Positions 35,071-40,974 of a stretch of DNA of 64,000 nucleotides are shown piece after piece (position 1 is the first letter of the stretch; the number at the start of each line of letters is the position of its first letter). The translations under genes were made by a program, and so were the position numbers. The notes beneath the pieces are model-generated. The model had not been told where the DNA came from. It saw nothing but the letters and a program-made list of their open reading frames with translations, and made no database searches. This DNA comes from an uncultured Clostridium sp. (GTDB taxonomy: Bacteria; Bacillota; Clostridia; TANB77; CAG-508), in assembly GCA_945865665.1 (NCBI GenBank), contig CAMBEE010000005.1, positions 17,186 through 81,185 on the forward strand, written 5' to 3'.

Positions 35071-35427
35071 TTCTTTTGTCGAATCTTGTCATTTTGTTAT
35101 TTGCTTTATTTTTCTTTTGTTTTAAATATTTCCCAAAAGCAAAAAGAATATTCATTTCTGAATATTCTTTTACATAATTTAAGTTTTTCAACCCAACTAT
35201 TGACTTTCAGCCACTATTATATCATATCACAGCTAAAACAAAAATCTCCAGTTCTTTTAAATAAGAACTGAAGATTTAATGGTGCCAACGAAGTAGTTAT
35301 CTACAACTTTTTTGGCTCTCATAACGATTGATTCAAAAATCAATCAATTTATTAAAGTATATCATATTTTCTATAAATTGCAATAAATTTCTTCAAAAAA
35401 ATTGCCACGAAATTTTGTTCTTAAGTA

Positions 35428-35456
35428 TTGATTTTTATTATTTCCTATGCTATACT
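35428..35456 (+). promoter_or_regulatory. sigma-A-type promoter for the small hydrophobic-peptide transcript
   Basis: TTGATT-17-TGcTATACT (extended -10). Confidence 0.55.
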
Positions 35457-35539
35457 GTCTAACATAGGAAATGAGAATAAACAGATGTGGTTTGCCACTT
35501 TTAATCCACAACTTATGTTGTGAGTGAGGAGGTGGTACT

Positions 35540-35650
35540 ATGATAGAAGCTGTTTTATTAGAAATAATATACTTACTTTTATTTGGTTTAGTTGTCGAAA
35601 CTATTATAGTATTTGCCTTAGTTATACTAGTTATAATTTTAAGCAAATAG
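35540..35650 (+). CDS. 36-aa hydrophobic peptide, candidate type I toxin (MIEAVLLEIIYLLLFGLVVETIIVFALVILVIILSK)
   Basis: Perfect RBS GAGGAGG 8 nt upstream; a single TM helix. Not in the track because it is under 60 aa. Confidence 0.4.
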   Translation: MIEAVLLEIIYLLLFGLVVETIIVFALVILVIILSK

Positions 35651-35654
35651 ACAA

Positions 35655-35698
35655 TAAAAAAACACATCTGTAATTTGACCGTTGTAGATGTGTTTTTA
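35655..35698. terminator. bidirectional rho-independent terminator shared by the convergent peptide mRNA and an antisense RNA
   Basis: A7-ACACATCT-loop16-AGATGTGT-T5. Confidence 0.7.
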
Positions 35699-35746
35699 CA
35701 TATTTTATCGGCAAACCACGTTTGTGGCTCTTCATTTCCTATATTT

Positions 35747-35775
35747 ATTATACAAAGATTTTATTGTTTTGTCAA
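35747..35775 (-). promoter_or_regulatory. consensus sigma-A promoter driving a ~75-nt antisense RNA toward the shared terminator
   Basis: Minus strand TTGACA-17-TATAAT, a perfect consensus. Confidence 0.55.
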
Positions 35776-36831: not shown

Positions 36832-36844
36832 AAATTTAGCTCCT

Positions 36845-38230
36845 TTACTTTAATTCCATATTATTTTTCTTTTTATTCTTATCAATTATTTCTTCTTTAG
36901 GTTTTACTTTTCTATAAATATTATTTGCAATTTCATTTTCATCATCAGTAAATATACCATTTTTATATAAATCATCACTAACAATTTTATAGTTCTCATT
37001 TTTATCAAAACAAATTCTTTTATGAAAATGTCCCATAATACTATGCCAAAAGTCTTTGAATTTCTGTAATTCTTGTTTTAATTTTTCTTTTTCAGCTTGT
37101 AGTCTATTTACAACCTTGTCTTTAGTTGTTAGTTTGCTTTTCAAGTTATCTATTTCATCTTCTTTTAGCTCTAATTGATATTTAAGTGAATGATTTTCTT
37201 TCGCTATTTTAAAAGAACTATACTCAAAATCTTTAATAGCCATATTTAAGTCATTTACACTTCTAATAGTTTTAGTGGTATCTTTTACATCTTTTGTAAA
37301 ACTTTTGATTTTTTCAATATCTTCGTTTGAAATAACCTTATTATTTTTATTAAATGGGGTAGGTTTTAAATTATCTAATATTGTACTTATATCTTTACTC
37401 GTATTATCAAGTTTTTTAGTTTGGCTATTAGCTTCAGCAAGTTTTTTCTCTTTCTTTTCCAGTTGCTTTTTTATATTTCTATAATTTCCCATATCATTAA
37501 CATTTATGTCTTGATTTCTGCCTTTTTGCTTTTCTTTTAATTTAAATTCTATATCATAGAACTTGTTAAAAGACTTAATACAAGCATTTCTCATTTTATC
37601 TTGAATTGCAGTTAATGACTCTTTTGTAAAAAGTTTTGTTTTACCAACTTGTTTTTTCATGCCTCTAGGAGAGTTCTCTATTATAGGTACTCCAACAATG
37701 TGCATGTGGGGAGAGGTTTCATCAAAATGAATTGTTGCATTTGCTATTTTAAAAGTTGGCACAATTTTAGCTAATTCCTTAACTTGTTCATTATACACAT
37801 CAATCATTTTTATTCTATATTCTTGCTCTTTACCGTTCCAAAAATCCATATCTCCAAGCTCTATTATAATTTCACAGGCTATATCATTTTGTGAGTCACA
37901 CACTTTTTCAAAATAGTTGTCTATTTTTCTATCATCTCTAGTCTGTTTATTATTATATTCAATACGAGCTTCTTCAAATTCTTGTAAATATAAATCTTGC
38001 ACATCATTTACAATATTATCTGTACCATAAATAACTCTAATCAAATCTCTTTGATTATCATAATCTCTTAAGTTGTGTTTATTAACTCTTGATAAATCAT
38101 TTGCATTTTGAATTGCATTATTTGATAGAGAAGTAGTACCAGATACATTTTCTTTAGAAACTTTCTTTGCTAATTTACTTTTATTCTTATCACTACCTAA
38201 ATGAAAAGAATATGCTAATTCTTGCTCCAA
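36845..38230 (-). CDS. plasmid recombination/mobilization relaxase, MobV (Mob_Pre) family
   Basis: N-terminal LAYSFHLG (catalytic Tyr), KHNLRD, and the HxDE..PHxH box (IHFDETSPHMHIV); long coiled-coil C-terminus. Likely TTG start after RBS AAGGAGGTG inside the track ORF. Confidence 0.8.
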   Translation of the reverse strand: MEQELAYSFHLGSDKNKSKLAKKVSKENVSGTTSLSNNAIQNANDLSRVNKHNLRDYDNQRDLIRVIYGTDNIVNDVQDLYLQEFEEARIEYNNKQTRDDRKIDNYFEKVCDSQNDIACEIIIELGDMDFWNGKEQEYRIKMIDVYNEQVKELAKIVPTFKIANATIHFDETSPHMHIVGVPIIENSPRGMKKQVGKTKLFTKESLTAIQDKMRNACIKSFNKFYDIEFKLKEKQKGRNQDINVNDMGNYRNIKKQLEKKEKKLAEANSQTKKLDNTSKDISTILDNLKPTPFNKNNKVISNEDIEKIKSFTKDVKDTTKTIRSVNDLNMAIKDFEYSSFKIAKENHSLKYQLELKEDEIDNLKSKLTTKDKVVNRLQAEKEKLKQELQKFKDFWHSIMGHFHKRICFDKNENYKIVSDDLYKNGIFTDDENEIANNIYRKVKPKEEIIDKNKKKNNMELK

Positions 38231-38428
38231 TGAAAACACCTCCTTGAAATTTCTTCGAAGCACAGGACTTTGACCTTGTCATAAGTCCTAACCCCCTATA
38301 TGTTATGACATACTATCATAACATGGGGGCTCTGCGAGGCAATAAAATTTATTTTTTGCAAATAAATTTTATTCAAATTAACTATCGCCACTTTCATTTT
38401 TGTTATCACAAAAACAAAACGTGCCACG

Positions 38429-40352
38429 TTAATTTGTTTCTTCTTGCATTTCTTCGCAGAACTTTACTGGCTTAACACCTACTGAGATAGGAATAGGCTC
38501 TTTGGTATAGATTACACTATCATTACTTTCATCTGGTATATAATCAAATGCAGTATCAATTTCTTGCATTTGGAACTTATCTTCTTCACGAATATAAATT
38601 ATTCCAAATTCATAAGTTGGCATTTTACCTTCTGGATCTAGTTTATAATAGTCTTGTAAAGGGAATACTCTAACAATAGCAGAGTTATCTTCAGCAAAGT
38701 TAAAATAAAACATTTGCTTATCTACATAGTAGGTTGCTTCTGTATAACCGACATCATAATATTGTCTTAATCTCATAATTATTTCTCCAACTTCTTTCTC
38801 TGGCAAATAATTGCTAAATCTAACACTACCAAGCACATTACCTAATATCATAGGCTTTGTAGTATCAATATAACCATTATCATATAATTCCTGACAAGGC
38901 TTACAAATTGATTCTCTAAAATTTATTTGTGTTACAACTACTTCATTGCCAACTAAAGTAAGTTCTATATCATCAACATATTTCATTATTAAATCTGCTT
39001 GTTCTTGTCTTGTATAATCTTTCCAAGTTTTAGTTCTTGCTTGATATTCCTTATCTAGTTTTACTTTATTAATAAAATCAATATCTCTTTTTAGTAGAAT
39101 ATCTTTTGGAGTAAATCTTAGTTCTTCTGTGCAATTAGTAGTTTCTAATTTATTTTCTAGTTCTGCAATAGCTTTCTCAACTATTTTCTTTTCTTCTTTA
39201 TATTCTTGTACTTCAAAAGCACCATTAATATAAGCCTTTTTAATTCTTTCTAGTTTTGCTTTTTGCTCTTTTATTTCTTTCTCTAATTGTTCTTTAGGCT
39301 CATCAAATTTTTGCTTTATCATAGGCAAGAAGAATTGATTGACAACAGAGTCATATTCTACTAATTCACTAATGAATTGATTAAAGTAGTCATTTATAAT
39401 TTTCTCTTTAAATTCAATTTTGCAGTCATTACAATAATAGTAGAAGTAGGTGTTACCATTTTTCTTTGTAGTAGCTTTTCCGCCTAATATTCTGTTACAT
39501 TTCGGACATTTCAACTTTTGCAAATATAAATAGGTTAATGTCCTTTGATAGCTCCTAGAGTTTTTCTTTTTTTGTACTTGGCAATCTTCCCACATTTCTT
39601 TTGAGATAATAGACTCTACCACATCTTCATAATAGGTTGGGTGTTTTGTTCTTTTTCCGTGAACAAAATCACCTTTGTATATTTCATTTTCAAGAATAGT
39701 AACAATAGTCGAATCTCGCCAATTATCTTTTCCTAATACCTTCTCTTCGTTGAACAGATTACTTATTTTCTGATAAGAATAGCCATTATAATATAAATCA
39801 AATATTCTAACTATAATATCTTTAGTAGAATAATCTATTACTAATCGTTTATCTTCGTGCTTGTAACCTAATGGGGCAACGTGAGGAATATGTCCTGACT
39901 TTATTGCTCCTGCTAGTCCTACTTTTGTTCTTTCGCTAGTCCTCTCAATTTCATTTTGACTAACACTCATTAATAATCTTGAAATCATTTTGCCATTGGC
40001 ACTTGTTGTATTTATTTCATCATTTACACAATCTAAATAGGCATCATTTTCATCTAAAAAAGTCATTAAATTTTCCCAATCATAAATACTTCTAGTTATT
40101 CTATCTAGTTTTAAAGCAACTATTGTGTTTATCTTTTTAGCCTTGATATCATCTTTTAATCTTTCAAATTCTGGTCTATGATTACCAGTTTTTGCACTTA
40201 TACCAGCATCCTCGTAATAATCTATTATTTCATAGCCTTTAAATTTACAAAAAGACTCTAATCTTTCTCTTTGTTCTGAAAGACTAAAACCGTTCTCTTG
40301 CTTGGTCTTCAGTTGATACTCTCATATACAACCCACTTTTTTTCTTTTCATC
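38429..40352 (-). pseudogene. large serine recombinase with a disrupted N-terminal catalytic region
   Basis: C-terminal 545 aa intact: end of the resolvase domain, recombinase domain, zinc ribbon CPKC..CNDC, coiled coil, ~200-aa extension. RBS GGAGG and ATG at 40352, then MKRKKVGCI-stop. The catalytic RVSTEDQA block is only in the -1 frame, and frame returns after ~40 nt at [16 protein letters not shown]. Either two compensating indels or sequencing errors. Confidence 0.75.
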
Positions 40353-40582
40353 TTTCAATTTGCATAACCTCCTAACTTCAAAAAAAGAGACATCAAAGTA
40401 CACACGAGTACTAATGACATCTCTTAAATCCGTTTATCACAAAATAAAATACAATATAATTGTAATATAATATAATTTTTTCAAAGTACTCGTAAATCTA
40501 TATTTGCTATTGCCCAAGAAAATATAGATAATTAATTGCCTATATTATATCACGATTTAAAGAAATGTCAATTTTTTACAAA

Positions 40583-40864
40583 TTATATTTTTTTCAAATA
40601 TTCTTCTAACTCTGATAATTTAATCTTTTTAGTCAAATTTGAAATATACACATCATTTGAATAATTAAAAACTAAAAAAGTAATATTTTTAATAATCACT
40701 CTATGTGGTTCAATGTATGTAAGATTAGTTTTCTCTAATTTTCTAACACTACCATTGATAAAAGTAGGATTAACTTTAGAAAACTCACATATAAATTCAA
40801 GTCGTTGTTTTAGACATTCCTCAAATTCTAATTCTTGCTTAATTATCTTCATTTCAAACACCAT
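40583..40864 (-). CDS. hypothetical protein (93 aa) upstream of the recombinase
   Basis: Open ORF with no recognised motif. Confidence 0.4.
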   Translation of the reverse strand: MVFEMKIIKQELEFEECLKQRLEFICEFSKVNPTFINGSVRKLEKTNLTYIEPHRVIIKNITFLVFNYSNDVYISNLTKKIKLSELEEYLKKI

Positions 40865-40974
40865 CCTTTCATTGTAATTTTAGGATGATTTTTTCGCAAA
40901 AGAAAAAAATCAACCATTTCTGATTGATTTTTGTATCTATCTGTTCTATAAAAAAGTTCGAACAGAAACGTCAT

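What the first reader, a model, noticed from the sequence alone, without database searches (positions are those of the whole stretch)
35330..40936. Tn4451-like mobilizable element (serine recombinase + MobV relaxase + oriT-like repeats) integrated next to tRNA-Leu and upstream of the fru operon
Gene content parallels the clostridial Tn4451/Tn4453 family as I recall it: a large serine recombinase with a long C-terminal extension, a Mob/Pre relaxase carrying the HxDE..PHxH box, and small accessory ORFs. The 165-bp recombinase-relaxase spacer carries nested inverted repeats (CCCCATGTTATGA-TAGTATG-TCATAACATATAGGGGG, AGGACTT-N13-AAGTCCT, AACGTGGCACGTT) typical of a Mob_Pre oriT. The imperfect 18-bp terminal inverted repeats I propose contain a 13-bp perfect core, TGATTGATTTTTG. 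The element sits where a DeoR-type fruR would normally precede fruK-fruA, and no fruR is present in this window.
Basis: partly seen in the sequence, partly recalled or inferred. Interest (0 to 1): 0.6.

Follow-up and report, generated by a model that had tools for sequence, protein, structure and literature searches.

The report
tRNA-end-targeting mobilizable element, disabled copy
This is a 5.7-kb mobilizable island inserted exactly after the CCA end of a tRNA-Leu gene; it is not a Tn4451 relative, and its family of near-identical serine-recombinase elements sits at the same spot behind at least 14 different tRNA genes in gut Clostridia.

Summary
The element spans window 40974-35280 on the minus strand, from the base after the CCA of tRNA-Leu(UAA) to a conserved tail that also ends in GCACCA.

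- **Proposed terminal repeats:** they are real and conserved, but they lie about 40-50 bp inside each true end.
- **Recombinase:** the large serine recombinase gene carries a 1-nt insertion. The same allele occurs in two independent metagenome assemblies.
- **Relaxase and oriT:** the MobV relaxase is intact. Upstream lies a covarying hairpin built like pMV158 IR3, and I predict the nick at GGGGG/TTAGGA.
- **Chimera:** this copy switches parentage inside a 17-nt interval that contains the predicted nick.
- **Family:** about 100 relatives with recombinases 84-100% identical start exactly after the CCA of Leu, Thr, Gln, Arg, Lys, Gly, Cys or Tyr tRNA genes. The two junctions share N72-N73-CCA in 30 of 30 complete elements.
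- **Tn4451:** the recombinase is 25% identical to a TnpX-like protein and lacks DUF4368. There is no TnpV/W/Y and no GA ends.
- **fruR:** relatives without the element also lack it, so nothing was displaced.

I found no published serine-recombinase element that targets tRNA 3' ends in general.

The parts
40975..41062 (-). tRNA-Leu(UAA), intact. Its 3' end (GCACCA, 40980-40975) is the left junction (attL core).
   Evidence: ARAGORN. Rfam tRNA 61.9 bits. The element starts at the next base in the window and in all relatives.
35280..40974 (-). The integrated mobilizable element, 5,695 bp.
   Evidence: Colinear at 92.6% with L082-L091 in a different chromosomal context. The junctions were defined against the unoccupied site in L002 and the occupied site in L014. 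The length comes from the left and right motifs.
40954..40974 (-). Conserved left end, the P' arm: ATGACGTTTCTGTTCGAACTT. It contains TTCGAA, mirror-placed to the T-loop TTCGAT of the tRNA.
   Evidence: About 2 bits per position over +1..+21 in 31 non-redundant elements. Single copy in the window.
40920..40941 (.). It lies 34-55 bp inside the left end.
   Evidence: Conserved in relatives.
40583..40864 (-). orf93, a family-wide small ORF between the left end and the recombinase gene. Function unknown; it could be a regulator or a directionality factor.
   Evidence: 83-96% identical in nearly all relatives. No hit in Pfam, PHROGs or NCBIfam.
40544..40571 (-). Consensus sigma-70 promoter (TTGACA-16-TG-TATAAT) upstream of the recombinase gene.
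   Evidence: 12/12 match.
40284..40358 (-). Recombinase N-terminal fragment: TTG start, catalytic YMRVSTEDQ, then a premature TAG. The inserted C is at 40292, and CGG-TTT-TAG sits on a TTTT run at 40289-40286.
   Evidence: Alignment to intact relatives. The same allele is in L183 and L184.
38429..40291 (-). Recombinase main frame, 620 codons: rest of the Resolvase domain, the Recombinase domain, a CxxC...CxxC zinc ribbon, a coiled coil, and an unassigned C-terminal region of about 160-220 aa.
   Evidence: Pfam. phrog_95 integrase, 3e-97, over residues 1-461 only. PDB TP901-1 integrase catalytic domain, 3e-21.
38418..38430 (-). AACGTGGCACGTT palindrome followed by a T-run, directly after the recombinase stop codon. 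Probably its terminator.
   Evidence: Sequence. Conserved in relatives.
38341..38373 (-). Hairpin H0 of the oriT region.
   Evidence: 14 pairs, 5 with changes on both sides.
38292..38329 (-). Hairpin H1: CCCCC-ATGTTATGA-(TAGTATG)-TCATAACAT-[ATA bulge]-GGGGG. The nick is predicted between G38292 and T38291 (GGGGG/TTAGGA).
   Evidence: Covariation. Coordinates. The architecture matches pMV158 IR3: an ATA bulge in the right arm and the nick at the 3' end of the right arm, ATAGTGTG/TTATAC (PMC5863519, PMC5090054).
38283..38299 (-). Chimera junction interval, ATAGGGGGTTAGGACTT. The parentage of the element switches here.
   Evidence: Against L082: about 85% identity on the recombinase side, 100% on the relaxase side; the last difference is at 38300. 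Against L098, L101 and L102: 98-100% on the recombinase side, then about 82% on the relaxase side; the first difference is at 38282.
38264..38289 (-). Hairpin H2: AGGACTT-A-TGAC-AAG-GTCA-AAGTCCT.
   Evidence: 11 pairs, 4 with changes on both sides.
36845..38230 (-). MobV (Mob_Pre) relaxase, 461 aa, intact.
   Evidence: Pfam PF01076, 2.5e-14. NCBIfam MobV. Aligns to MobM 4lvi. 100% identical to P0001, seen on 204 contigs.
36526..36831 (-). orf101, an accessory ORF downstream of the relaxase gene. Present in much of the family at 47-99% identity.
   Evidence: No family hit.
35909..36391 (-). orf160, cargo ORF found only in this sub-lineage.
   Evidence: Found only in the window, L001 and the L082-type loci. 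No family hit. A terminator follows at 35856-35884.
35540..35775 (.). Possible type I toxin-antitoxin-like module. It has a 36-aa hydrophobic ORF on the + strand (35540-35650) behind GGAGG, a bidirectional terminator (35658-35697), and a 12/12 consensus promoter on the - strand (35775-35747) that faces the ORF.
   Evidence: The L082 version differs by an in-frame 9-nt indel. No family hit.
35326..35347 (.). It lies 46-67 bp inside the right end.
   Evidence: Invariant core in relatives.
35280..35309 (-). Conserved right end, the P arm: AAGTTGTAGATAACTAC-TTCGTTG-GCACCA. The GCACCA at 35285-35280 repeats the tRNA 3' end (attR core).
35242..35277 (-). Host terminator hairpin directly after the right junction, followed by the fruK upstream region.
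   Evidence: Shared with L008.

Best explanation
Window 40974-35280 is an integrative mobilizable element (IME) from a very abundant family in gut Clostridia.

**Shown by comparison**
- The element is a discrete unit bounded by the 3' CCA of a tRNA gene on one side and by a conserved tail ending in N72-N73-CCA on the other.
- The family occupies this same position behind many different tRNA genes.
- The tRNA gene stays intact.
- The host sequence downstream of the insertion point is not conserved.

**Inferred**
- The element's large serine recombinase pairs an attP with the T-arm, acceptor and CCA end of a CCA-encoding tRNA gene, which acts as attB. That attP would form when the right tail joins the left end, giving ...GTTGTAGATAACTAC-N7-G-N72-N73-CCA|ATGACGTWTCTGTTCGAAC....
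- The crossover falls within the 5-nt block N72-N73-C-C-A.
- The N72-N73 bases carried in attP decide which tRNAs can be used: A73, G73 or U73 types.
- Because the downstream half of attB is free, a resident left junction remains a usable target. This would explain the tandem arrays.
- After excision, the MobV relaxase would nick the pMV158-like oriT at GGGGG/TTAGGA, and the element would use another element's conjugation pore for transfer.

**This particular copy**
- It is a chimera joined at the oriT.
- A 1-nt insertion splits its recombinase gene, so it probably cannot excise on its own.

It is not a member of the Tn4451 family.
For: **Boundaries**
- homology between the window and L082-L091, which lie in a different context, runs from 41072 to 35275.
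- in L002 the tRNA-Leu(UAA) CCA is followed by TTAGAACCTCAAG.... The same flank follows the right tail of the homologous element in L014. One search shows it again at L099 and L103.

**Family-wide targeting**
- all 80 left ends found are preceded by CCA.
- 56 of them abut a called tRNA of 14 isoacceptor types: Leu tag/taa/caa, Thr cgt/ggt/agt, Gln ttg/ctg, Arg acg, Lys ctt, Gly tcc, Cys gca, Tyr gta.
- Most of the other 24 still carry a tRNA 3' half.
- Some target tRNAs sit in host tRNA clusters (L112 Phe-Gly-Cys, L118 His-Gln, L159 Met-Tyr).

**Core**
- attL and attR share 5-8 nt, always N72-N73-CCA, in 30 of 30 complete elements.
- The host flank beyond the right junction carries about 0.1-0.8 bits per position.
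- the discriminator classes are polyphyletic among recombinases 85-97% identical.

**Sole recombinase**
- the element encodes one recombinase, the serine recombinase. It is intact (642 aa) in relatives.

**Tandem arrays**
- seen in L082, L116, L098 and L099.

**oriT and relaxase**
- relaxase; hairpins. The pMV158 architecture is from PMC5863519 and PMC5090054.

**Chimera at the oriT**
-.

**Frameshift**
-. It recurs in independent assemblies.
Against: - No excision product, circular junction or transfer was observed. Every statement about catalysis is inferred from junction anatomy.
- Known large serine recombinases recognise both half-sites of attB. A sequence-free downstream half is unusual.
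- A shared core of 5-8 nt is longer than the 2 nt a serine recombinase needs, and I could not fix the exact crossover.
- I found no empty/occupied pair with both flanks identical for the window's own locus. Only the downstream flank of L002 matches occupied sites.
- The window's locus is a hotspot where other islands, some with tyrosine integrases, also sit (L008, L014).
- The recombinase C-terminal region could not be modelled (mean pLDDT 43).
Confidence: 0.8

Rival explanations
1. One reading: a member of the Tn4451/Tn4453 family, meaning a TnpX-type transposon that inserts at GA dinucleotides with low specificity and is bounded by the 18-21-bp inverted repeats.
For: The element has the same two enzyme classes, a large serine recombinase and a Mob_Pre relaxase with an upstream oriT. 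The inverted repeats are real.
Against: - The recombinase is 25% identical to a TnpX-like protein that has DUF4368, and it has no DUF4368 itself.
- The relaxase shares only its motif with a TnpZ-like protein.
- There is no TnpV, TnpW or TnpY and no cat gene.
- The ends are at the tRNA CCA and a CCA-ending tail, outside the repeats.
- A genuine Tn4451-like unit with TnpW and DUF4368 lies next to relatives of this element and is clearly a different element (L084 3120-6437).
Confidence: 0.04
2. The frameshifted copy still makes some full-length recombinase by +1 ribosomal slippage on the U-UUU-UAG 'shifty stop'. The product would read ...QARERFSLSEQ..., differing only by G to R, so the element would remain weakly autonomous.
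For: - The premature stop directly follows a TTTT run. A +1 slip of tRNA-Phe restores the main frame exactly (sequence).
- The codon before it, CGG, should be rare in a 28% G+C genome.
- The same allele is found at 99.9% identity in two other assemblies.
- The rest of the gene shows no further damage.
Against: - Relatives have a plain in-frame gene, so slippage is not a family feature.
- The three occurrences may simply be one host clone.
- The Gly that would be replaced is invariant in the relatives aligned.
- No stimulatory element was identified.
Confidence: 0.12
3. The tRNA-flanked structure was made by a tyrosine integrase acting in trans, as for classic tRNA islands. The serine recombinase would then serve another role, such as resolution or inversion.
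For: - tRNA 3' ends are the textbook targets of tyrosine integrases, and reviews place serine-recombinase IMEs inside genes (PMC5704250, PMC7168690).
- Tyrosine integrase genes occur in neighbouring islands at this hotspot (L008 87-728, L014 7672-8655).
- The shared core is 5-8 nt, close to a tyrosine-recombinase overlap region.
Against: - Every one of about 100 elements carries the serine recombinase next to the left end, and none carries a tyrosine recombinase inside its boundaries.
- The recombinase is a full-length integrase type with recombinase and zinc-ribbon domains, not a small resolvase.
- The conserved arms flanking the core travel with the element through many hosts.
Confidence: 0.06
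4. The tRNA gene is cargo of the element, as in some phages, and not the target.
For: Homology between the window and L082 begins about 10 bp upstream of the tRNA. Eleven relatives lie on contigs in the IMG/VR viral collection.
Against: - The tRNA identity changes among near-identical elements, and some target tRNAs lie inside host tRNA clusters.
- L002 has the same tRNA-Leu(UAA) and upstream genes without the element.
- Identity over the tRNA is only 69%, the level expected between two different Leu tRNAs.
Confidence: 0.02

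Closest known systems
Integrative and mobilizable elements (IMEs) of Firmicutes that encode a serine recombinase and a MOBV relaxase (reviewed in PMC5704250; examples in PMC7168690, PMC12084326)
   Same: A small integrated element with its own integrase, its own MobV relaxase and oriT, and no coupling protein or mating-pore genes. The flanking direct repeats are short. 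Tandem accretion and module shuffling occur.
   Different: Those reviews describe serine-recombinase IMEs as inserting inside protein-coding genes or at low-specificity sites, and assign tRNA 3' ends to tyrosine integrases. This family sits exactly at the CCA end of many different tRNA genes and leaves the tRNA intact.
Tn4451/Tn4453 (TnpX large serine recombinase, TnpZ Mob/Pre relaxase, RS_A site)
   Same: The two enzyme classes, and an oriT-type site directly upstream of the relaxase gene.
   Different: - The recombinase is 25% identical to a TnpX-like protein and lacks DUF4368.
- The relaxase is not detectably similar to a TnpZ-like protein beyond its motifs.
- There is no TnpV, TnpW, TnpY or cat gene.
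- The gene order differs.
- Integration is specific to tRNA ends rather than GA-flanked and low-specificity.
- The recombinase has its own consensus promoter inside the element. From my own knowledge, the tnpX promoter of Tn4451 is assembled at the circle junction.
pMV158 MobM relaxase and its oriT (prototype of MOBV1)
   Same: The HxDE..PHxH and HxxR motifs. The oriT hairpin has a 5-bp lower stem, a 3-nt ATA bulge in the right arm and an upper stem, and the predicted nick sequence sits at the 3' foot: ATAGGGGG/TTAGGA here against ATAGTGTG/TTATAC in pMV158 (PMC5863519, PMC5090054).
   Different: The match to MobM is weak (phmmer E = 0.0012; below the NCBIfam MobV cut-off). The protein is 461 aa with a long coiled-coil C-terminus. 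The loop is 7 nt rather than 4. The nick site is predicted, not mapped.
Dehalococcoides ssrA genomic islands (CcrB-like serine recombinase DsiB; PMC3146451)
   Same: Islands carrying a large serine recombinase are integrated at the 3' part of a tRNA-like gene (tmRNA). They show a direct repeat of the gene's 3' end and form tandem arrays downstream of the intact gene.
   Different: They use a single target (ssrA) with a 20-bp repeat and a crossover in the T-loop. They have a two-recombinase module (DsiA and DsiB) and no relaxase. The family here uses many tRNA genes, shares a 5-8-nt core at the extreme CCA end, and has one recombinase.
'Multi-targeting' large serine recombinases (Durrant et al. 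2022, PMC10083194)
   Same: Closely related recombinases are found at many different genomic sites that share a motif.
   Different: That clade is the TndX/TnpX-like group, which mostly has DUF4368, and its targets were defined as disrupted protein-coding genes. The word tRNA does not occur in the main text of that paper. Here the many targets are one structural class, tRNA gene 3' ends, and none is disrupted.
Functional analogues in target choice (my own knowledge, not tested here): tyrosine-integrase tRNA islands, family 2 casposons, type V-K CRISPR-associated transposons homing next to tRNA genes, Ty3 and Dictyostelium TRE retrotransposons
   Same: They use tRNA genes as conserved, multi-copy, safe insertion sites.
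   Different: Their enzymes and mechanisms are unrelated.

Membership tests
Tn4451/Tn4453 family | TnpX-type recombinase: a large serine recombinase with the DUF4368-containing C-terminus | tested here: not met
   Pfam finds only Resolvase and Recombinase domains and no DUF4368. Identity to a TnpX-like DUF4368 protein (L084 4770-6434) is 25%. The PDB TnpX N-terminal domain hit (9e-7) is weaker than the TP901-1 hit (3e-21).
Tn4451/Tn4453 family | TnpZ-type Mob/Pre relaxase with an upstream RS_A/oriT site | tested here: inconclusive
   The Mob_Pre domain and an oriT are present. BLASTP against a TnpZ-like protein finds only the HxH motif (E = 0.005).
Tn4451/Tn4453 family | Accessory genes tnpV, tnpW, tnpY and a cat cargo gene | tested here: not met
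   orf93, orf101 and orf160 hit no family, including TnpW PF14202. A TnpW hit does occur in the neighbouring, distinct element of L084.
Tn4451/Tn4453 family | GA dinucleotide ends and low target specificity | tested here: not met
   The ends are ...CCA|ATGACG... and ...GCACCA|host. All 80 left ends found follow a CCA.
Integrative mobilizable element (IME) | Encodes its own integration/excision enzyme | tested here: inconclusive
   The gene is present but frameshifted in this copy. It is intact at 642 aa in relatives.
Integrative mobilizable element (IME) | Own relaxase and oriT, but no coupling protein or mating-pore genes | tested here: met
   The relaxase is intact and the oriT hairpins covary. 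The 5.7 kb holds only five further small ORFs with no T4SS or coupling-protein domains.
Integrative mobilizable element (IME) | Discrete element with att junctions and short direct repeats; occupied and unoccupied sites exist | tested here: met
   GCACCA is repeated at 40980-40975 and 35285-35280. L002 shows the unoccupied tRNA-Leu(UAA) site whose downstream flank follows the right junction in L014, L099 and L103.
Integrative mobilizable element (IME) | Demonstrated excision and mobilisation by a helper | not testable with these tools
   This needs PCR or read evidence for the circle, and mating assays.
Large serine recombinase (integrase type) | N-terminal catalytic domain with the nucleophilic Ser, a recombinase domain, and a zinc ribbon with coiled coil | tested here: met
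   YMRVSTEDQ. Resolvase 3.1e-27 and Recombinase 3.9e-18. CPKC...CNDC in the sequence. phrog_95 integrase 3e-97. Similarity to CcrB and XisF.
Large serine recombinase (integrase type) | Crossover at a 2-bp core between attP and attB that share little other identity | tested here: inconclusive
   The junctions share 5-8 nt. The arms are otherwise unrelated except for a mirrored TTCGAA. The exact cut cannot be read from sequence.
MOBV relaxase (pMV158 MobM type) | HxxR motif, HxDE..PHxH motif, and a hairpin oriT with a G/T nick at its 3' foot | tested here: met
   KHNLR and HFDETSPHMH. PF01076 at 54 bits against a cut-off of 25.5. The NCBIfam MobV score is below its cut-off (31.7 against 100). 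The oriT architecture matches (PMC5863519). Nicking itself was not tested.
Type I toxin-antitoxin (for the 35540-35775 module) | A small hydrophobic toxin ORF with an overlapping antisense RNA | tested here: inconclusive
   The ORF, ribosome-binding site, bidirectional terminator and convergent consensus promoter are present. There is no family match. The 36-nt inverted repeat would not make the two RNAs complementary in the way the par locus does.

The most novel reading that the evidence does not exclude
This family of large serine recombinases uses the generic 3' end of CCA-encoding tRNA genes as its attB: the T-arm at a fixed distance, plus N72-N73-CCA, with essentially no sequence requirement downstream.

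Under this reading:
- The choice of tRNA is encoded in DNA, by the N72-N73 bases of attP, and not in the protein. That would explain why 85-97% identical recombinases have switched repeatedly between A73, G73 and U73 tRNAs.
- Because the downstream half-site is free, each insertion recreates a usable target. Elements then accrete in tandem, and relaxase action at tandem oriTs shuffles recombinase and relaxase/cargo modules exactly at the nick.

This would be an undescribed targeting mode for serine integrases. It would also offer a natural and possibly re-programmable landing-site system present in almost any bacterium whose tRNA genes encode CCA.
Probability: 0.45. Interest if true: 0.85.

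Novelty: new variant of a known kind. Interest (0 to 1): 0.66.

Why it matters
- **For the window.** The region is a disabled, chimeric IME and not a Tn4451-type transposon. The fru operon was not decapitated, because fruR is absent from the whole lineage.

- **For mobile-element biology.** tRNA 3' ends are treated as the territory of tyrosine integrases, and serine-recombinase IMEs are described as inserting into genes. This serine-recombinase family sits precisely at the CCA end of at least 14 tRNA isoacceptors across many uncultured gut Clostridia. It is very abundant: more than 7,900 database proteins score E <= 1e-10, and the best 120 listed are at least 90% identical to the query.
  - If the recombinase does the integration, it shows how a serine integrase can combine high positional precision with many targets.
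  - It also gives a directly testable rule, N72-N73 of attP, for target choice.

- **For genome engineering.** Serine integrases are the main tools for inserting large DNA, and tRNA genes are conserved, multi-copy safe sites.

- **For module exchange.** The breakpoint at the predicted nick gives a concrete, testable example of relaxase- or oriT-linked module exchange between integrated elements.

Tried and rejected
- **Exact-protein look-ups of flanking genes** (DUF5662 protein, FruA) found nothing on record.
- **Megablast of the region** against plasmid and phage collections hit only the tRNA.
- **tblastn against plasmids** found nothing above about 30% identity for the recombinase or about 39% for the relaxase N-terminal domain. 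No named relative emerged.
- **'Intact' 663-aa protein P0121.** It looked like an intact version, 100% identical to the window. Its contigs carry the same frameshift, and the tool reports that the called gene does not translate to P0121 in table 11. It reads through two in-frame TGA codons, so I infer the source used a code that reads TGA as sense. I rejected it as evidence for an intact allele.
- **Nick in the H1 loop (GTATG/TCA).** I first placed the nick here by analogy with GTGTG/TT. I dropped this after reading that the pMV158 nick sits at the 3' foot of IR3 beyond an ATA bulge. That geometry matches GGGGG/TTAGGA better and falls inside the chimera interval.
- **Right-hand tail as a displaced host tRNA fragment.** Rejected because the tail is conserved with the element across hosts whose tRNAs differ.
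- **Pairing in the tail and a 5-bp offset of arm motifs.** I looked for a tRNA-like acceptor pairing in the tail and for the offset expected between attP and attB arms. Neither was consistent.
- **par-type pairing for the small-ORF module.** The 36-nt repeat is inverted, so convergent RNAs would carry the same sequence and not complementary ones.
- **AlphaFold2 of the recombinase C-terminal 283 aa** with 25 homologues gave mean pLDDT 43, so I ran no fold search.
- **Small ORFs:** Pfam, PHROGs and NCBIfam gave nothing.
- **Rfam:** only the tRNA was found in the region.
- **Empty/occupied pair with both flanks identical:** none found for the window's own locus.

Full report
**1. What is in the sequence**

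All genes of the region are on the minus strand. In the direction of transcription, the order is:
- tRNA-Leu(UAA), 41062-40975.
- orf93, 40864-40583.
- A 12/12 consensus promoter, 40571-40544.
- A large serine recombinase gene.
- A structured spacer.
- A Mob_Pre relaxase gene.
- orf101, 36831-36526.
- orf160, 36391-35909.
- About 600 bp without a long ORF.
- fruK, whose real start is 35027.

Pfam finds Resolvase and Recombinase domains in the recombinase and Mob_Pre in the relaxase. The relaxase has KHNLR near its N-terminus. Its HFDETSPHMH aligns to MobM of pMV158.

**2. The recombinase gene is interrupted**

- The catalytic-serine segment, [24 protein letters not shown], lies in one frame (40358-40284). 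The remaining 620 codons lie in the +1 frame (40291-38429).
- Alignment to L082, L088 and L014 shows a single inserted C at 40292: GAGAACGGTTTT against GAGAA-GGCTTT.
- Two independent metagenome contigs, L183 and L184, are 99.9% identical to the window here and carry the same insertion. It is therefore a real, circulating allele and not a read error.
- The database protein P0121 (663 aa) looked intact. The tool reports that its gene does not translate to that protein in table 11. It reads through two in-frame TGA codons, so the source probably used a code in which TGA is sense.
- The premature stop follows a TTTT run (CGG-TTT-TAG). A +1 slip there would restore the frame with only a Gly-to-Arg change. 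I treat this as a minor possibility.

**3. True boundaries**

- Fifteen close fruK loci were fetched and compared with the window. The region upstream of fruK is hypervariable.
  - L002 (FruK 97% identical) has the same AsnB, DUF5662 protein and tRNA-Leu(UAA), followed by a different 5-kb segment.
  - L008 (99%) has another island.
  - More distant relatives have a tRNA-Leu(CAA) about 150 bp upstream of fruK.
- Ten contigs that carry the identical relaxase share window 41072-35275 at 92.6% in a different chromosomal context, next to tRNA-Leu(UAG).
- At the left junction, the two different Leu tRNAs diverge up to ...GCACCA. The sequences then become colinear from ATGACGT... onward.
- At the right junction, every copy ends ...AAGTTGTAGATAACTAC-N7-GCACCA. 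Unrelated host sequence follows, usually a terminator hairpin.
- In L002 the tRNA-Leu(UAA) CCA is followed by TTAGAACCTCAAG.... The same sequence follows the right tail in L014, L099 and L103. This gives an unoccupied and an occupied version of one target.
- The element is therefore 40974-35280 (5,695 bp), flanked by GCACCA.
They lie 34-67 bp inside the junctions. In an excised circle they would flank the crossover symmetrically. They could be accessory binding sites, but nothing was tested.

**4. The family targets tRNA 3' ends in general**

- A scan of metagenome and viral contigs with the intact recombinase gave 91 loci at 71-100% identity, most of them 83-100%. Most loci long enough to show it have the layout orf93, recombinase, oriT, relaxase.
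- All 80 left ends found are preceded by CCA.
  - 56 of them abut a called tRNA: Leu(tag, taa, caa), Thr(cgt, ggt, agt), Gln(ttg, ctg), Arg(acg), Lys(ctt), Gly(tcc), Cys(gca), Tyr(gta).
  - Most of the rest retain a tRNA 3' half, or are tandem junctions.
- In 31 non-redundant element candidates of 3.0-9.1 kb:
  - The left arm beyond the CCA and the right tail are highly conserved.
  - The tRNA side shows only generic tRNA conservation (GTTCGA.TCC ... CCA).
  - The host side beyond the right junction is not conserved.
  - attL and attR share 5-8 nt in 30 of 30 valid pairs, and the shared block always includes N72-N73-CCA. One of the 31 was a false right-end call.
- The right tail ends GCACCA or GGTACCA behind A73 tRNAs, GAGCCA behind Gln, and GCTCCA behind Gly, Thr and Cys.
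- On a neighbour-joining tree of the recombinases, these classes are polyphyletic. The class therefore travels with the DNA core and not with the protein.
- The crossover must lie in the 5-nt block. Matching at both N72 and N73 argues that it includes them or lies 5' of the CCA. I could not fix it further.
- A TTCGAA in the left arm mirrors the T-loop TTCGA about the C74-C75 step. I note this without interpreting it.
- Tandem arrays occur:
  - L082 has a 0.65-kb mini-element.
  - L116 has two full elements.
  - L098 and L099 each have a second right end.

  Arrays are expected if the resident left junction can still act as a target.

**5. oriT**

- The spacer is more conserved than the flanking genes.
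- In 33 distinct family members, three hairpins are 95.9% paired. Fifteen pairs change on both sides, no shuffle out of 500 reaches this, and slid controls reach at most 55%.
- H1 (38329-38292) is CCCCC / 9-bp upper stem / 7-nt loop / an ATA bulge in the right arm / GGGGG, followed by TTAGGA.
- The mapped pMV158 oriT has the same design. IR3 has an ATA bulge in its right arm and the nick at the 3' end of that arm, within ATAGTGTG/TTATAC (PMC5863519; the nick GTGTG/TT is also given in PMC5090054).
- I therefore predict the nick at GGGGG/TTAGGA, between 38292 and 38291.
The palindrome AACGTGGCACGTT is more likely the recombinase terminator.

**6. This copy is a chimera joined at the oriT**

- Against L082, identity is about 85% from the left end down to 38300. 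It is then 100% to the right end, apart from one SNP and a 9-nt indel.
- Against L098, L101 and L102 the pattern is reversed. Identity is 98-100% in the 3' half of the recombinase gene down to 38283, then about 82%.
- The switch therefore lies within 38299-38283, ATAGGGGGTTAGGACTT. This interval contains the predicted nick.
- This fits relaxase-mediated exchange between tandem or co-resident oriTs.
- Homologous recombination in this invariant stretch is the alternative, and I cannot exclude it.

**7. Relation to known systems**

- *Tn4451.* The recombinase is 25% identical to a TnpX-like DUF4368 protein that happens to lie in a genuine Tn4451-like unit (Mob_Pre, TnpW, recombinase with DUF4368) next to relatives of this element. 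It lacks DUF4368 itself. The relaxases share only their motifs. Membership of the Tn4451 family fails on three of four defining features.
- *IMEs.* The element fits the general class of serine-recombinase/MOBV IMEs. However, the reviews I could read place such IMEs inside genes and assign tRNA 3' ends to tyrosine integrases (PMC5704250, PMC7168690).
- *Recombinase survey.* The large survey of serine recombinases defines targets as disrupted protein-coding genes and never mentions tRNA in its main text (PMC10083194).
- *Closest precedent.* The Dehalococcoides ssrA islands carry a CcrB-like serine recombinase at the tmRNA gene (PMC3146451).
- *Limits of the search.* Eight full-text searches found no description of a serine recombinase that targets tRNA ends generally. 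The library is incomplete, so novelty is probable and not proven.

**8. fruR**

A FruR (DeoR-type) query from Clostridium baratii finds nothing in the window. It also finds nothing within 10 kb of fruK in the 15 closest relatives, including those without the element. The element did not displace fruR.

**9. Verdict**

- The copy in the window is an ordinary-looking, disabled IME.
- The interest lies in what its family reveals about serine-recombinase targeting of tRNA gene ends and about module exchange at the oriT.

Noticed in passing
window 35540-35775: A 36-aa strongly hydrophobic ORF on the + strand (MIEAVLLEIIYLLLFGLVVETIIVFALVILVIILSK) sits behind GGAGG. A bidirectional terminator lies at 35658-35697, and a 12/12 consensus promoter on the - strand (35775-35747) faces it. 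The layout resembles a type I toxin-antitoxin. The L082 copy differs by an in-frame 9-nt indel. No family match.
   Followed up: partly
window 35145-35168: A perfect palindrome, AGAATATTCA-GAAA-TGAATATTCT, lies about 120 bp upstream of fruK. It is nearly invariant in all fruK relatives aligned. It could be an operator for a regulator encoded elsewhere, given that the lineage has no adjacent fruR.
   Followed up: no
L084, L085, L090, L091: 3120-6437: A genuine Tn4451-like unit is inserted into a Bro-N gene, which is 276 aa in L082 but split in these loci. It has a Mob_Pre relaxase (428 aa), a weak TnpW hit, and a serine recombinase with Zn_ribbon_recom and DUF4368. It lies a few hundred bp from the tRNA-Leu(UAG) that carries the family element.
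   Followed up: partly
L082 12947-13640 (also L083-L091, L093): A 0.65-kb mini-element follows the full element in tandem. It has its own left-end remnant, a 78-aa ORF and a complete right tail, but no recombinase or relaxase.
   Followed up: partly
L014 2290-2410; also L113, L126, L137, L139, L160: The element is preceded only by the 3' half of tRNA-Leu(UAA), starting at the anticodon loop. In L014, L113 and L137 a different island lies upstream of that half, with a 443-445-aa ORF shared with L002. This suggests a second integration system that uses the anticodon-loop region of the same tRNA.
   Followed up: partly
L088 12850-18914: An IS with an rve-family transposase cuts off the right end of the element at the position matching window 35381. 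The AsnB and DUF5662 genes that lie upstream of the tRNA in the window lie downstream here, in inverted order. This hints at rearrangement between element copies at two tRNA-Leu loci.
   Followed up: no
L008 6647-6760: The closest relative (FruK 99% identical) keeps only the last ~100 bp of the element's right end. This remnant is fused to a truncated nitroreductase gene belonging to another island that has a tyrosine integrase (87-728).
   Followed up: partly
P0121 / L183 556-2547, L184 225-2216: The public gene call for the frameshifted recombinase is a 663-aa protein that reads through two in-frame TGA codons. The source probably used a genetic code in which TGA is sense. The pseudogene therefore looks intact in protein databases.
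   Followed up: yes
window 40944-40967 and relatives: The left end carries a conserved hairpin, TCTGTTC-(GAACTTTTTTATA)-GAACAGA, directly after the tRNA. It has no T-run. orf93 might therefore be co-transcribed from the 12/12 consensus tRNA promoter (41129-41101) when the element is integrated.
   Followed up: no
window 49406-49762: A tmRNA gene (tag ANNEELAYAA) lies 8 kb from the element. No island signature was looked for there.
   Followed up: no
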